Shown here: positions 30,670 through 34,194 of the stretch, piece after piece
Position numbering within the stretch: position 1 is the first letter of the stretch
Layout of the letters: each line of letters begins with the position of its first letter
Source: Candidatus Taylorbacteria bacterium RIFCSPLOWO2_02_FULL_44_35
GTDB taxonomy: Bacteria > Patescibacteriota > Minisyncoccia > Phycocordibacterales > DSPV01
Reading direction: 5' to 3'
NCBI GenBank assembly: GCA_001822695.1
Contig: MHSF01000012.1
Span: 1 to 34,194 of the forward strand
Length of the DNA stretch: 34,194 nucleotides
Made by a program: the position numbers and the translations under genes
The notes under the pieces: generated by a model
Told to the model about the DNA's origin: nothing
The model's input: the letters and a program-made list of their open reading frames with translations, nothing else
Databases searched by the model: none

Positions 30670-33600
30670 ATGCCTAAAAACGAATTTATTCTAGCGGGAA
30701 AAAAATTCATTACTTCTAAAAAAGCAGCTTTGCTTTTTGGCTATACCCAAGATTACGTTGGTCAGCTTTGCCGCGGTGGAAAAGTAGACGCTCGACGCAT
30801 CGGCCGAACTTGGTATGTTTGCGAGAAATCTATTTTAGAGCATAAAAAACTATATGGCGCGCCAGCGCGAAAAAAGGAGGAAATAGCCCCTAAAGAAATC
30901 AAAAAGGTGCCGGTAGTCGGTGGAGGAGCTTTACCAATTAAGTCAACGGCACCGAAAATCGGTTTTGACAGGACGAGCGGACCGATAATTCCAATTATTA
31001 GAGAAGTCCCGGCTGTTGGCGAACTTAAATACGAAAAAGAAACGCTGCCGTTTCTGCCGGAAATCGGGCGCGCTGATTTTACCGCGCCCAAAAAAGTCGT
31101 CAGCCAGTTTTTCAAAAAGTCGCTTGGTTTTGTTTTGGCGCTTGTCTTGGTGGTGGGCGGTTACGCCAATCGCACCGAAATTGTTGCCGAAGCGGCGCGA
31201 GGTTTTCGCGCCGCGCAGGACAAAGTAGTGGCGACAATTCAAAAGATTCAAAGGCTTCGCCTTGCGGAAGTCCGCAAGGCGAAGCCTTTAGGTTTTATTT
31301 TTGACCAAAAACCAAAACTTTCTTGGGTTGATTCCAAAATCAACGCCGAGCAAGTGGCGAAAATTTTCGGTTCAACCGGTTTTGTTGATGGCGACAAATT
31401 AGTCCAAGCGGTTTCGGGTGCAGTGAAATTGGCGAGCTTTGATTATTTTGAAAACTTAGTGTCGGTGCCGAAAATTTACTCGGAGGAATATATCGCTTCG
31501 GAAAAACTTCTCGCGCTGGTAGAAAAAGTTTTGCCGGATAAACAACGGATAGCTCTAGAGTCAGTTGCTAAAACTACCTACAATGAGTTGCATCCGATTT
31601 TCCAAAAAACCAGTCGGTTTATCGCTTCGCTCTTTGGTAAACAGACCAATGTTTATCTTGCCGTGGATAATTCACAAACGTCAGCAAAAATTTCTACTAA
31701 TGCAACCACCACGGTCCAAACTAAAACTGTTGTCTTAAGCCCGCGTAATGTTATTCAGGAGATCACTAAAAATATTTCTTATGTTGGCATTTCGCGCGAA
31801 GAGTTTGAAAGTCGGCTTCGGGATATCGCCGCTAAGTTTTTCTCCGAGACCTCGCGGCTGTCCACTGCCACCGCCAGCAATAACACTTACATTAACAATG
31901 TCTATAATACCGTTGCTGGCAGCAACAATCTTGACATGCTTCACAAGGTAACCATCAGTGATTCTTCCATTTTCACCGGTGGTACGGTTACCGGCTCTAC
32001 CATTACCGATTCACCGATTAGCGGTTCTACCGGTTCGTTTACTACTCTTTCCGCTTCCGGCGATACCTCGTTGGCGACCACCTCCGTAAATGGCTCGCTT
32101 ACTCTTTCTCAAATTACCGTGCCCGCTGTTACGACTAACCAACTCTACAATGTTGCCGGCTCAATTTACTGGAATGGCATAGCGCTTGGCGCGGGCGGTG
32201 GCGTTGGTTGGGCGACTTCTACTGCTAACTCGGAATCGATTTATTTCTATGGCTTGAGTAATGTCGGTATTGGCACGACTTCGCCTTACGCTAAACTCTC
32301 GGTCGCTGGCAACGGCGCTTTCTGGAACAACTCCTCCACCGCTATCCCTCTTGATATTTACGGCTTCTACAATCAAACTGCCAACTTGTTCAGAGTGTCT
32401 TCTTCAACGGCAACCGCCACCACCACCGCCTTCGTGATTGATTCCAACGGCAAGGTGGGGGTGGGCACGAGCACGCCGGGGACGGACTTCGCGGTGCAAG
32501 GGGGTTTGCTCGCTTCGGGTGTTGCCAACCTGATGACTCATTGCGTGACGGGAGACACCAAGCTCCGCCGACGAAGACGGAAACGAAAGAATAAAAGGTT
32601 AAACCTTTCTTCAGATTTAAGGTTTAACCTTGAAGATGAAAAAGGTTCAACCTTTTCTCGCGGCGGCGATGACGACTACCTCTACGACGAGGTGATGATT
32701 AAGGATATTGAGGCGGGAGACGAAATCCAAACGCTTGACCAAAAAACCGGCGCTCTCGTCTGGCGCAAGGTCAAAGGCGTCGCCTTCATGGGCACCAAGC
32801 CGATTTTCAAACTCACGACCGCGAGCGGCAAGACCATTCGCACCACGGCGGAGCATCCGTATTTTGTGCGAGAAGTTAAAAAAGACGCGCCGAAAAAGAA
32901 ACCGAAGCTCGGCATTTTCTACGACAACTCCAATATGTTTTACGCTCAGAAAGCCGCCGGCTGGAAAGTTGATATCAAGAAACTCAAAGAGTCGCTCGGG
33001 GCAATGTTTGAGGTAAAATTCTTTAACTTTTACACCGCCTTGCCCAAAGAAGGCGACCCAGCTTTGGCGGGCACGCTTGATTACTTAAAAACTTTTGAGA
33101 AAGAAATTTCTCTGAAGACCAAACTGCTCAAGTATATAAAGACCAAAAAGGAGATAAACGGGAAGATTGTGGAAGTTATGGAGAAAAAGGGAGATATGGA
33201 TGTGGATATCACTCTTGATGTTACAAAAGCCATAGACACTCTTGATGCTTTGCTGATTGTCAGCGGAGACAGCGACCTCTTGCCCCTTAAGAATTATTCT
33301 TTAGACAAGGGAAAGAAAATCGCTTTTGCCGGTTACGAAAACAATATGGCTTGGGAGTTAAGGCGGATACTGCACGCTTATCTGGATGACTACGAAGGAG
33401 AATTGGCTCTTCTTTCACCGGCCAATAATGCTGATAAAAAACAAGCCCCAAGCACAGGGCTTGGGGTTGCGTTATGGCAGGCATTGTATGCGAAGCCGCC
33501 TTCGGTGTCAAGCGGCGGGGTGTGGAAAAAAGTTTCTGGTTTGCGTCAGGGCCAGGAAATCGCTGTGTTGCGCGGCAAGCGGACGGTTTGGGACACAATT

Positions 33601-34194
33601 ACGACGATTGAGTCAATGCCCGCCGAAGATGTTTACGACATTGAAGTGGAAGGAACGCATAACTTCATCGGAAACAGCATCGTCGCCCACAACACCTATG
33701 TCGGGGGGAATCTGACCACCGCTGGTTCGTTCACGCTCAACAGTGAGGCCTTCACCGACCTCACGGGGAGCGGTCTCACCAACACCGGCGGCGTCCTCTC
33801 GCTGGACACTTCTTCGGGCATCATTGCCCACGACTGGAAACAACAAACCGACACCTTCTCGGTGAACGCCCTGACGCCGACGACAACGATACCGATTTGG
33901 ATTAAATCCACCGCCACTTCTTCCTTTGCCGGAGGGATTGAGAGCTGGTCAAAGATTGGCGCTCCGTATTTCAACGCCACGAGCACGACCGCGACTTCTA
34001 CATTTGCGGGCGGTTTGCGAGTCGGCGGCGGCTTGAACGTCACCGGTCTCTCGGGCATCGTCCAAGCGGTCAGCGGCGATTTGAAAAACGGCGCCACCAC
34101 CGACAATCTTTCTGAAGGGGCAACTAATCTCTACTACACCACCGCCCGGGTCAACACCGACGCTCCCAATGTCACTTTGAACACCGCCAATTAC
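30670..34194 (+). CDS. giant intein-containing membrane-anchored surface protein (N-terminal HTH, TM, tail-fibre-like stalk); partial, runs off the window
   Basis: Translated by hand, with no stop in 1175 codons. MPKNEFILAGKKFITSKKAALLFGYTQDYVGQLCRGGKVDARRIGRTWYV (excisionase-like HTH), TM at about aa 151-166, NVGIGTTSPYAKLSV, KVGVGTSTP, TTDNLSEGATNLYYT. TGgTATAAT upstream. Confidence 0.9.
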   Translation, partial: MPKNEFILAGKKFITSKKAALLFGYTQDYVGQLCRGGKVDARRIGRTWYVCEKSILEHKKLYGAPARKKEEIAPKEIKKVPVVGGGALPIKSTAPKIGFDRTSGPIIPIIREVPAVGELKYEKETLPFLPEIGRADFTAPKKVVSQFFKKSLGFVLALVLVVGGYANRTEIVAEAARGFRAAQDKVVATIQKIQRLRLAEVRKAKPLGFIFDQKPKLSWVDSKINAEQVAKIFGSTGFVDGDKLVQAVSGAVKLASFDYFENLVSVPKIYSEEYIASEKLLALVEKVLPDKQRIALESVAKTTYNELHPIFQKTSRFIASLFGKQTNVYLAVDNSQTSAKISTNATTTVQTKTVVLSPRNVIQEITKNISYVGISREEFESRLRDIAAKFFSETSRLSTATASNNTYINNVYNTVAGSNNLDMLHKVTISDSSIFTGGTVTGSTITDSPISGSTGSFTTLSASGDTSLATTSVNGSLTLSQITVPAVTTNQLYNVAGSIYWNGIALGAGGGVGWATSTANSESIYFYGLSNVGIGTTSPYAKLSVAGNGAFWNNSSTAIPLDIYGFYNQTANLFRVSSSTATATTTAFVIDSNGKVGVGTSTPGTDFAVQGGLLASGVANLMTHCVTGDTKLRRRRRKRKNKRLNLSSDLRFNLEDEKGSTFSRGGDDDYLYDEVMIKDIEAGDEIQTLDQKTGALVWRKVKGVAFMGTKPIFKLTTASGKTIRTTAEHPYFVREVKKDAPKKKPKLGIFYDNSNMFYAQKAAGWKVDIKKLKESLGAMFEVKFFNFYTALPKEGDPALAGTLDYLKTFEKEISLKTKLLKYIKTKKEINGKIVEVMEKKGDMDVDITLDVTKAIDTLDALLIVSGDSDLLPLKNYSLDKGKKIAFAGYENNMAWELRRILHAYLDDYEGELALLSPANNADKKQAPSTGLGVALWQALYAKPPSVSSGGVWKKVSGLRQGQEIAVLRGKRTVWDTITTIESMPAEDVYDIEVEGTHNFIGNSIVAHNTYVGGNLTTAGSFTLNSEAFTDLTGSGLTNTGGVLSLDTSSGIIAHDWKQQTDTFSVNALTPTTTIPIWIKSTATSSFAGGIESWSKIGAPYFNATSTTATSTFAGGLRVGGGLNVTGLSGIVQAVSGDLKNGATTDNLSEGATNLYYTTARVNTDAPNVTLNTANY
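32905..33390 (+). other. NYN (LabA/DUF88-like PIN-fold) ribonuclease domain nested in the intein
   Basis: IFYDNSNMFY, FYTA, KKGDMDVDITLD, IVSGDSDLLPL, GKKI...M AWEL. Confidence 0.85.
33435..33511 (-). promoter_or_regulatory. antisense promoter plus terminator unit inside the intein coding sequence
   Basis: Minus strand TTGACA (33511-33506), 17 nt, TACAAT (33488-33483); then ccccaagc-cctgt-gcttgggg and cttgtttttt. Confidence 0.6.

What the first reader, a model, noticed from the sequence alone, without database searches (positions are those of the whole stretch)
33435..33511. Hidden antisense micro-transcription unit at the end of the NYN cargo
Seen: directly after the NYN domain, the minus strand has a near-perfect sigma70 promoter (TTGACA-17-TACAAT, with a small palindrome cgaag-ccgc-cttcg in the spacer). 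About 15 nt later comes an 8-bp GC hairpin and U-tract, predicting a ~40-nt RNA (about 33475 to 33435). The plus strand reads through all of it in-frame. Inference: the intein captured a whole NYN gene plus small-RNA cassette with its stop codon lost. The RNA could be a cognate inhibitor or substrate, as in RNA-antitoxin systems, or an antisense regulator.
Basis: partly seen in the sequence, partly recalled or inferred. Interest (0 to 1): 0.78.

Follow-up and report, generated by a model that had tools for sequence, protein, structure and literature searches.

The report
Small RNA gene inside NYN intein
A tiny backwards-facing gene for a roughly 40-base RNA sits inside a self-splicing protein insert next to its nuclease domain, it accompanies such nucleases in many ultra-small bacteria, and it is probably the nuclease's RNA antidote.

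Summary
On the minus strand, TTGACA-17-TACAAT (33511-33483) is followed 16 nt later by an 8-bp hairpin (33466-33446) and CTTGTTTTTT. The plus strand reads through it as residues 922-948 of an intein that carries a NYN nuclease domain.

The same promoter-hairpin-T-run unit lies at the end of 59 of 80 NYN genes fetched by protein homology alone, and in 0 of 74 control regions. It is convergent in 51 and tandem in 8. Where it is non-coding it holds stops and shifted frames. The stems covary, also among the eight translated copies. All 28 NYN-bearing inteins examined keep a recognisable unit and the NYN acidic residues. No Rfam 15 family matches it.

Related inteins of the same family carry other cargo behind a minus-strand promoter at the same place: antisense type II toxin-antitoxin genes (PemK/MazF, ParE, DUF433-DUF5615) or other small RNAs.

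I read the RNA as an antidote-like partner of the NYN RNase, at about 45%. Transcription and function are untested, because no RNA run holds this DNA.

This scan had already noted NYN-linked promoter-hairpin units and antisense small RNA cargo in inteins on other genomes.

The parts
30670..34194 (+). Host gene: a giant surface-protein ORF (HTH, membrane segment, GIGTTSP-type repeats). It is open at the 3' end of the window.
32542..33693 (+). Intein, 384 aa, from CVTGDTKLRRRRRK at its start to IVAHN at its end, followed by T as the +1 residue.
   Evidence: Pfam Intein_splicing 1.6e-16. End motifs are shared with 5 other inteins and with 79 metagenome loci.
32905..33372 (+). NYN (PIN-like nuclease) domain fused in frame inside the intein.
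   Evidence: Pfam PF01936, 8.9e-15, aa 746-901. The acidic residues D128, N131, D220, D243 and D245 (intein numbering) are kept in all 28 intein-borne copies aligned.
33506..33511 (-). -35 hexamer TTGACA.
   Evidence: TTGAC is invariant (second T at 90% or more) in the 36-sequence alignment A2.
33483..33488 (-). -10 hexamer TACAAT, 17 nt after the -35.
   Evidence: T and A of the first two positions are invariant, and the last T is kept in 90% or more, in A2.
33467..33475 (-). Predicted 5' tail of the RNA (AUAACGCAA). The predicted start is the A at 33475, 8 nt after the -10.
   Evidence: Inferred from promoter geometry. An A 7-8 nt after the -10, followed by a GUnAC-like motif, recurs in the aligned units. 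There are no transcript data.
33446..33466 (-). Hairpin CCCCAAGC-CCUGU-GCUUGGGG: 8 pairs and a 5-nt loop.
   Evidence: Covariation.
33436..33445 (-). T-run CTTGTTTTTT. Together with the hairpin it has the form of an intrinsic terminator.
   Evidence: T-run columns are 90-100% conserved in A3.
33433..33513 (+). The same DNA read on the plus strand as intein residues about 922-948 (DKKQAPSTGLGVALWQALYAKPPSVSS).
   Evidence: In the AlphaFold2 model, intein residues 292-304 have pLDDT under 50 and residues 307-316 form a short helix.

Best explanation
The element is a complete small-RNA gene on the minus strand. It has a near-consensus sigma-70-type promoter, a start at about 33475, a 9-nt 5' tail, an 8-bp GC hairpin and a U-run, which would give an RNA of about 39 nt.

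It belongs to a family of small-RNA genes that are genetically tied to NYN (PIN-like) nuclease genes across Patescibacteria, one RNA gene per NYN gene. The two-gene cassette (NYN plus RNA gene) was taken up into the cargo slot of an intein that lives in giant surface-protein genes. The NYN stop codon is gone, so the RNA gene is also translated on the other strand as a mostly disordered linker.

Most likely function: the RNA is an antidote-like partner of the nuclease. It would bind or decoy the NYN RNase and keep it harmless, as in type III toxin-antitoxin pairs. The cassette would then act as an addiction or defence module that also stabilises the intein.

Shown here: the sequence features, their conservation, the covariation, the linkage to NYN, the module swap, and toxin-antitoxin cargo in sister inteins.

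Inferred: that the unit is transcribed, where the RNA starts and ends, that NYN is toxic, and that the RNA neutralises it.
For: 1. Linkage. 59 of 80 loci fetched by NYN protein homology alone have a strict unit in the 360 nt around the end of the NYN match. The strict rule was: -35 beginning TTG with at least 5 of 6; -10 of form TAnnnT; spacer 16-18; stem of 6 bp or more; T-run. 0 of 74 equal-sized control regions upstream have one. Where a locus has a second unit, it follows a second Pfam NYN gene in 3 of 4 cases.

2. Selection on RNA or DNA structure. In A3 (18 sequences), 8 of 9 stem pairs change on both sides. The covariation score is 0.547 against 0.218 in shuffles (0 of 500 reach it), and slid registers give 0.153 at most. 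In the 8 translated copies alone, 5 of 8 pairs change on both sides, 0.487 against 0.200. In clade 2 (15 sequences), 99% of cells pair, 0.439 against 0.231.

3. Promoter signature. TTGAC, and the TA and final T of the -10, are invariant or at least 90% conserved in 36 units, while the spacers vary. In this genome 18 of 22 near-consensus sites lie outside long ORFs.

4. Not only cis-antisense. The same RNA lies convergent or tandem to NYN in one clade.

5. Co-inheritance. The RNA type tracks the NYN clade on the tree: a long-form clade of 43 rows and a short-form clade of 42 rows, both with support 100. NYN and unit were swapped together in G003.

6. Asymmetry expected of a toxin and its antidote. 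28 of 28 intein-borne NYN copies keep a recognisable unit and the acidic residues. Short inteins that hold a unit but no NYN exist (L196, L190, L199).

7. The same slot and the same promoter place in sister inteins hold antisense type II toxin-antitoxin genes: PemK 59 bits, ParE 27 and 25 bits, DUF5615 80 and 35 bits, DUF433 69 bits.
Against: No transcript has been seen. No RNA run holds this DNA, so the promoter, the start and the terminator are predictions.

Nothing shows that this NYN is toxic or that it binds the RNA.

Known type III antitoxins are tandem repeats placed upstream of a ToxN-type toxin, which this is not.

21 of the 80 NYN loci fail the strict rule; most belong to the long-form clade, and I did not show that each of them has a weaker unit.

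In the window's own genome only 2 of 4 NYN genes have a clear unit: the window's and C9's. C22 has a hairpin, a T-run and a -35 only, and C14 has none that I could see.

51 of the 59 units are convergent, so antisense action on the NYN or host mRNA stays possible for the window's clade, where every copy is convergent.

One unit in L037 follows a reverse-transcriptase gene, not NYN.

The three weaker hits of model R1 in other genomes (31-36 bits) have no NYN within 1.5 kb.

Related sequences are not independent, so all counts overstate the support.
Confidence: 0.45

Rival explanations
1. A cis-antisense regulator. The short RNA pairs with the complementary stretch of the NYN mRNA (here, of the giant host mRNA) and triggers cleavage or blocks read-through. 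This is how lambda OOP RNA acts on cII and how RatA acts on txpA; both examples are recalled, not read here.
For: 51 of the 59 units are convergent with NYN and abut or overlap its 3' end. Every copy in the window's clade is convergent. The plus-strand hairpin lacks a T-run, so NYN or host transcripts should run across the unit.
Against: In the sister clade the same RNA lies in tandem, in the sense direction, after NYN in 8-9 loci that have no minus-strand NYN. Other notes of this scan place such units upstream of NYN (not checked by me). The unpaired 5' tail and the loop are conserved, which pairing with a co-evolving complement does not require. Short inteins keep the unit without any NYN.
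Confidence: 0.2
2. An RNA cofactor, guide or substrate. The NYN nuclease needs the RNA to find or cut its target, or it processes the RNA into an active product.
For: There is one RNA gene per NYN gene, and the RNA type tracks the NYN clade. A conserved single-stranded motif (GUnAC... / UUACAUCC) sits just 5' of the hairpin in both the short and the long forms.
Against: The tail is conserved across distant lineages rather than variable, so it does not look like a programmable guide. The tails show no better pairing with the cognate NYN start regions than shuffled tails do (-4.8 against -4.75 kcal/mol, 25 loci). Units persist without NYN, which is odd for a cofactor.
Confidence: 0.13
3. A DNA-level or transcription-level element of the mobile cassette: an insulator, a polymerase roadblock, or a cassette boundary used in cargo exchange. 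The short RNA would be a by-product.
For: The unit lies at the cargo-to-Hint-C boundary in all cargo types. 26 of 28 NYN inteins and 17 of 18 non-NYN inteins have a strict minus-strand promoter there. The cargo swap in G003 ends near it. One unit follows a reverse-transcriptase gene.
Against: In sister inteins the promoter at this place plainly serves real antisense genes. The transcribed tail and loop are conserved while the promoter spacer is not. Free-standing NYN genes outside inteins have the unit in either orientation.
Confidence: 0.12
4. A chance match, or a decaying relic with no present function.
For: About 10 near-consensus promoter matches are expected by chance in a genome of this size and composition. 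No expression data exist.
Against: Recurrence in 59 of 80 loci against 0 of 74 controls. Compensatory stem changes, also among the translated copies. Hexamers kept while spacers diverge. The TGTCAA of the -35 falls in different reading frames in different intein clades.
Confidence: 0.02

Closest known systems
Type III toxin-antitoxin systems (ToxIN, CptIN, TenpIN). I saw only the abstracts of PMC5086642, PMC12283969 and PMC13682666 in the listing.
   Same: A protein endoribonuclease is paired with a small non-coding RNA encoded beside it. The pairs are cognate, patchy in distribution and multi-copy. Here this is inferred from the linkage between RNA type and NYN clade.
   Different: The candidate toxin is a NYN/PIN-like domain, not a ToxN-type protein. 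The RNA is a single unit of about 40 nt (or about 75 nt) with its own promoter and terminator, usually downstream and convergent. It is not a repeat array upstream in one operon. Binding, processing and toxicity are untested.
Convergent antisense small RNAs that overlap the 3' end of a gene: lambda OOP RNA on cII, and B. subtilis RatA/txpA and SR4/bsrG (type I toxin-antitoxin). These are recalled from knowledge, not read here.
   Same: A short RNA with its own promoter and intrinsic terminator, convergent with the 3' end of the neighbouring gene and complementary to it.
   Different: Type I toxins are small hydrophobic peptides. Here the same RNA family also occurs in tandem with NYN and without NYN, so complementarity cannot be the whole story.
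Inteins with a gene on the opposite strand (antisense homing-endonuclease genes). Scan notes e1-176563 and e1-5643646 say this layout is in print; my searches found no usable paper, so I have not verified it.
   Same: An intein reading frame stays open while the opposite strand of the cargo region holds a separately promoted gene.
   Different: Here the antisense gene is a small RNA, or in sister inteins a type II toxin-antitoxin operon, rather than a homing endonuclease. The in-frame cargo is a NYN domain. I did not see either in print: 'NYN domain' plus 'intein' gave 0 papers. For 'intein' plus 'toxin-antitoxin' I saw only the listing of 15 of 113 papers, whose titles and abstract openings concern toxin-antitoxin biology, inteins as drug targets, and engineered toxin-intein tools, and none describes such cargo.
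VapBC and DUF433-DUF5615 type II toxin-antitoxin pairs with PIN-like toxins.
   Same: A PIN-fold RNase acts as toxin. DUF433-DUF5615 occupies the same cargo slot in sister inteins L182 and L189.
   Different: Their antidote is a protein. The window has no antitoxin protein gene, only the small-RNA unit.

Membership tests
Sigma-70-type promoter plus intrinsic terminator (a small transcription unit) | -35 and -10 hexamers near consensus with a 16-18 nt spacer | tested here: met
   TTGACA-17-TACAAT, 11 of 12. The hexamers are conserved in 36 units.
Sigma-70-type promoter plus intrinsic terminator (a small transcription unit) | A GC-rich hairpin followed directly by a U-run | tested here: met
   8 pairs with 6 G-C, then CTTGTTTTTT. 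The stem covaries.
Sigma-70-type promoter plus intrinsic terminator (a small transcription unit) | A transcript with the predicted ends exists | not testable with these tools
   No run on record as RNA holds the stretch.
Type III toxin-antitoxin system | The toxin is a ToxN/AbiQ-type endoribonuclease | tested here: not met
   The protein is Pfam NYN PF01936. PADLOC gives only weak NYN and HEC-09 matches.
Type III toxin-antitoxin system | The antitoxin is a tandem array of RNA repeats upstream of the toxin, in one operon | tested here: not met
   A single unit with its own promoter lies downstream, convergent in 51 loci and tandem in 8.
Type III toxin-antitoxin system | The RNA binds and inhibits the toxin protein | not testable with these tools
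   This needs expression and binding assays.
Type I toxin-antitoxin system | The toxin is a small hydrophobic peptide | tested here: not met
   The partner is a NYN domain or protein of about 170-200 aa.
Type I toxin-antitoxin system | An antisense RNA overlaps the toxin mRNA | tested here: inconclusive
   True by geometry for the convergent copies but not for the tandem copies. The mRNA ends are unknown.
Any Rfam 15 RNA family | A match at the family's gathering score | tested here: not met
   0 matches in the window. Only tRNAs matched in 20 related loci. The best sub-threshold match at the site scores 17 bits against a gathering score of 42.
Intein (Hint splicing domain) with nested cargo | N-terminal Cys, the TxxH block, and C-terminal HN followed by a +1 nucleophile, in one open frame | tested here: met
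   CVTGDT at the start, TTAEHPYF in between, VAHN followed by T at the end. Pfam Intein_splicing. Splicing itself was not tested.
Intein (Hint splicing domain) with nested cargo | A homing endonuclease domain (LAGLIDADG, HNH or similar) as cargo | tested here: not met
   At E up to 0.1 Pfam gives NYN, the intein/Hint models and a sub-threshold HTH_17, and no homing-endonuclease family.

The most novel reading that the evidence does not exclude
NYN nucleases and their promoter-hairpin RNAs form a new, widespread class of toxin plus RNA-antidote modules in ultra-small bacteria. A family of inteins in giant surface-protein genes would then persist by carrying addiction modules instead of a homing endonuclease. 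The modules seen are NYN with an antisense RNA, antisense MazF, ParE or DUF433-DUF5615 operons, an unknown domain with its own RNA, or an RNA alone. The RNA gene survives even while being translated on the other strand, because losing it would release the nuclease.
Probability: 0.4. Interest if true: 0.9.

Novelty: new variant of a known kind. Interest (0 to 1): 0.8.

Why it matters
If the reading holds, it adds an RNase-plus-RNA pair with a PIN-like toxin to the known toxin-antidote systems. That would give a function to the many small NYN genes of Patescibacteria; this 584-kb genome alone has four.

It would also show that inteins can carry addiction or defence cargo in place of homing endonucleases. 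That bears on the old question of how inteins without a working endonuclease persist.

It is also a clean natural case of one DNA stretch under two constraints at once: a promoter, an RNA hairpin and a terminator on one strand, and an open reading frame on the other.

All of this can be tested with cloned DNA in E. coli.

Tried and rejected
- **RNA evidence.** No RNA holder is listed for window 32600-33900; all 18 holders are DNA.
- **Reads.** Four DNA runs were laid, and all are kept as contigs. No clean intein-less joint appeared (the exact one would be 32541 to 33694). One joint, 32867 to 33434, skips the NYN domain with 14 other letters in between. Its shorter side is 32 letters, its depth is 7-12.5, and it is seen in 4 runs. 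It hints at a relative with the N-terminal Hint part followed directly by the unit, but it is too short to rely on.
- **RNAalifold on the 36-sequence MAFFT alignment** gave no structure, because two clades sit in different registers. I therefore named the stem myself on clade-wise alignments.
- **Tail pairing with the NYN start region.** Cognate -4.8, shuffled-tail -4.75 and non-cognate -4.2 kcal/mol over 25 loci: no signal. Start codons were called mechanically.
- **The unit as a general habit of this genome.** Rejected. Model R1 finds only the window copy at a significant score, plus a weak 18-bit hit beside the C9 NYN gene.
- **R1 in 151 genomes of the same order.** 5 have a hit, the window's own included. 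The one strong hit abuts NYN but has the same sequence as L046. The three weak hits have no NYN nearby.
- **NCBIfam** gave no names for the cargo or the antitoxin-like ORFs.
- **Papers.** 'NYN domain' plus 'intein' gave 0 papers. 'NYN' plus 'Candidate Phyla Radiation' gave 1, judged irrelevant from its abstract opening. For NYN with RNA antitoxin or small RNA, nothing on bacterial NYN-RNA pairs appeared in the listings. Searches for inteins with opposite-strand genes gave nothing usable; in PMC8966425 I read one passage only, and it was irrelevant.
- **Spacer palindrome.** Not conserved.
Full report
**1. What is in the window**

On the minus strand, TTGACA (33511-33506) is followed by a 17-nt spacer and then TACAAT (33488-33483). 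Next come a 16-nt tail, the hairpin CCCCAAGC-CCTGT-GCTTGGGG (33466-33446) and CTTGTTTTTT (33445-33436). The hairpin folds at -18.6 kcal/mol with z = -2.8.

The plus strand is one open frame, 30670-34194. Pfam finds an intein splicing domain at aa 674-1008 and a NYN domain at aa 746-901. From the end motifs, the intein runs from C625 to N1008, which is 32542-33693. The element encodes residues 922-948, between the NYN domain and the C-terminal Hint part.

**2. Is it chance?**

The genome has 584 kb in 32 contigs and 44% G+C. It holds 22 promoter matches at 11 of 12 or better, against a mean of 9.7 in simulated genomes. Of the 22, 18 lie outside long open frames, so this organism appears to use the consensus and to avoid it inside genes.

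A combined scan for promoter, hairpin and T-run gave 9 rows genome-wide, against 2-6 in simulations. The window's unit is the only one at 11 of 12. The unit is therefore rare in this genome and not a general habit of it.

**3. Relatives**

A search of 61 related genomes with the NYN-to-Hint-C protein found a free-standing NYN gene in G033 (L015, 35% identical). Directly after its TAG stop, on the opposite strand, lie TTGACT-17-TACAAT, then 17 nt, then CCAGGC-cttgc-GCCTGG and TTTTT.

The same-genus genome G003 has the same intein at the same host site. Its unit has an 11-bp stem of quite different sequence.

A scan of one genome per species with a six-sequence NYN alignment returned 80 loci, nearly all labelled Patescibacteria. 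I examined the first 14 by eye, and every one has the unit just after the NYN domain. In free-standing genes it follows or straddles the stop, with stops and frame changes inside it. In long frames it is translated.

With a strict rule, 59 of the 80 loci have a unit in the 360 nt around the end of the NYN match, against 0 of 74 control regions upstream. 51 are convergent and 8 are tandem. The -10-to-hairpin distances fall into two classes, 14-19 nt and 45-53 nt. L094 and L095 are the same sequence filed twice, and the loci are related to one another, so these are not independent counts.

**4. Structure and promoter conservation**

In 36 aligned units, TTGAC and the TA and final T of the -10 are invariant or at least 90% conserved, while the spacer varies. 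All 36 have a perfect stem of 6-11 pairs.

Pair counts on MAFFT alignments, with the stem named by me:

| Alignment | Sequences | Cells paired | Stem pairs changed on both sides | Covariation score vs shuffled | Shuffles reaching it |
|---|---|---|---|---|---|
| A3 | 18 | 85% | 8 of 9 (34 cells) | 0.547 vs 0.218 | 0 of 500 |
| A5 (translated copies only) | 8 | 92% | 5 of 8 | 0.487 vs 0.200 | 0 of 500 |
| A8 (7 convergent + 8 tandem) | 15 | 99% | 3 of 7 | 0.439 vs 0.231 | 0 of 500 |

For A3, slid registers reach 0.153 at most.

A covariance model built on A3 recovered L037 and L039 at 77 and 72 bits, although they were not in its seed. No Rfam 15 family matches.

**5. Orientation and partner**

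In one NYN clade the same RNA (A-GUUAC-A/U-UC, stem GCCRGSC, U-run) lies either convergent with NYN or in tandem just after it. In the tandem form the NYN stop TGA sits inside the -35. The nine tandem loci have no minus-strand NYN.

Where a locus has a second unit, it follows a second Pfam NYN gene in L039, L106 and L058. In L037 it follows a reverse-transcriptase gene.

On a tree of 85 NYN domains, the RNA type tracks the protein clade. The long-form clade has 43 rows and the short-form clade 42 rows, both with support 100. The window groups with L033-L035 (support 97) and then L036, next to the free-standing L037-L039. The tree was made by the quick method, and L014, L016 and L059 sit on long branches.

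The long form is a two-hairpin RNA of about 75 nt with the linker GGGUAUUACAUCC. This resembles the short form's tail.

**6. Capture into inteins**

The window's intein type (CVTGDTKLRRRRRK at the start, VYDIEVEGTHNFIGNxIVAHN at the end) sits in giant GIGTTSP-repeat proteins of several candidate phyla. Some proteins hold more than one copy.

Against G003, the Hint-N part is 74% identical and the Hint-C part 63%, but NYN is only 22% and the unit-coded stretch 26%. NYN and unit were therefore exchanged together.

A six-sequence AlphaFold2 model has mean pLDDT 78. The stretch coded by the T-run and hairpin has pLDDT under 50 (residues 292-304), and residues 307-316 form a short helix.

**7. Sister inteins**

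A metagenome scan with the intein alignment gave 79 loci.

- **NYN-bearing inteins.** Of 28 complete ones, 26 have a strict minus-strand promoter near the Hint-C boundary. The other two (L140, L142) have TTGACA-17-TATAAA and TTGACA-17-TACAAC with an intact hairpin and T-run. In an alignment of 27 of these inteins plus the window's (L160 left out), every copy keeps D128, N131, D220, D243 and D245.
- **Inteins without NYN.** Of 18 with no Pfam NYN, 17 also have a strict minus-strand promoter at the same relative place.
- **Antisense toxin-antitoxin genes.** In five of these, the minus strand downstream of that promoter encodes such genes while the plus frame stays open. L166 has PemK/MazF (59 bits). 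L167 and L179 have ParE (27 and 25 bits). L182 and L189 have DUF5615 (35 and 80 bits). L189 also has DUF433 (69 bits).
- **An unknown cargo with its own RNA.** Five others carry an unknown sense-coded domain plus a different structured antisense RNA of about 65-85 nt.
- **RNA only.** Three short inteins (L196, L190, L199) hold an RNA unit alone.

**8. Reading**

The element is a real, selected small transcription unit that travels with NYN.

For function I favour an antidote-like RNA partner of the NYN RNase, at about 45%. The grounds are:

- one RNA gene per NYN gene;
- co-inheritance of RNA type and NYN clade;
- independence of orientation;
- a conserved unpaired tail and loop;
- the asymmetry that NYN never occurs without a unit among the inteins examined, while units occur without NYN;
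- toxin-antitoxin operons in the same cargo slot of sister inteins.

All of these are circumstantial. There are no transcript data and no test of toxicity or binding. Antisense action, a cofactor role and a DNA-level role remain open.

The unit does not meet the defining features of type III or type I toxin-antitoxin families, so I claim at most that it works like one, not that it is a member.

**9. Prior notes and literature**

Earlier notes of this scan, on other genomes, describe:

- NYN genes with promoter-hairpin units (e1-1586783, e1-1278124, e1-1138242, e1-146658);
- repeat-targeting inteins with NYN or PIN cargo and antisense small RNA genes (e1-2028149, e1-997754).

So the scan has met this before. 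I tested the downstream and intein forms here, but not the upstream form.

I found no paper on NYN-linked small RNAs, NYN in inteins, or natural toxin-antitoxin cargo in inteins. I saw listings and abstract openings only, plus one irrelevant passage of PMC8966425. The library lacks most subscription journals, and I read no supplements.

Noticed in passing
L166 (intein 601-1683), L167 (601-1755), L179 (601-1590), L182 (2-1150), L189 (550-1683): Inteins of the same family keep their plus frame open, while the minus strand encodes type II toxin-antitoxin genes (PemK/MazF, ParE, DUF5615, DUF433) downstream of a near-consensus minus-strand promoter.
   Followed up: partly
L161, L168, L171, L184, L202: Inteins with an unknown sense-coded cargo domain (FEVDQSGR.EEL ... 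EYPGYE ... SIG..SPAH; no Pfam match). Each also has a structured antisense RNA unit of about 65-85 nt that shares the motif GGGCUGCGAAUC-hairpin-GUGUAACAGUUC.
   Followed up: partly
L196 (508-1098), L190 (523-1302), L199 (538-1263): Short inteins of 197-260 aa without NYN that still hold a minus-strand promoter, a structured RNA and a terminator.
   Followed up: partly
L042 1-1791: A NYN domain plus its unit lies in frame inside a leucyl-tRNA synthetase gene, with no Hint part on the N-terminal side. The contig ends just after the unit.
   Followed up: partly
L017, L019, L056-L109 (for example L096, Niastella vici): A second, longer NYN-linked RNA form of about 75 nt: a covarying 5' hairpin, the linker GGGUAUUACAUCC, and a terminator hairpin. 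It is convergent with a separate NYN clade, and one record bears a non-Patescibacteria name.
   Followed up: partly
L037 1091-1175 (minus strand): A unit (26 bits with R1) follows a reverse-transcriptase gene (Pfam RVT_1, 84 bits) just upstream of the NYN gene. Its tail resembles that of the L106-type unit.
   Followed up: partly
window 31250-31289: An 18-19-bp perfect inverted repeat (AAAGGCTTCGCCTTGCGG...) lies inside the N-terminal part of the giant ORF. The scanner scores it as terminator-like on both strands.
   Followed up: no
G000 C9:25259-25360 (L116 about 1500-1600): The genome's free-standing NYN gene on C9 has its own convergent unit: TTGACA-16-TACTAT, a 28-nt tail, an imperfect hairpin and a T-run. 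The NYN frame reads through the hairpin.
   Followed up: yes
L034, L040, L041: More than one intein of this family lies in one giant surface-protein frame, each after a GNVGIGTTSP-type repeat.
   Followed up: no
L093, L068, L053 (NYN start regions): A -10-like hexamer (TATAAT or TATACT) ends 6-7 nt before the called ATG of these free-standing NYN genes. This would make leaderless mRNAs. The start codons were called mechanically.
   Followed up: no
window 32867 to 33434 (joint in runs X5, X6, X7, X9): Contigs join the end of the N-terminal Hint part to the start of the unit, with 14 other letters in place of the NYN domain. The shorter side is only 32 letters.
   Followed up: no
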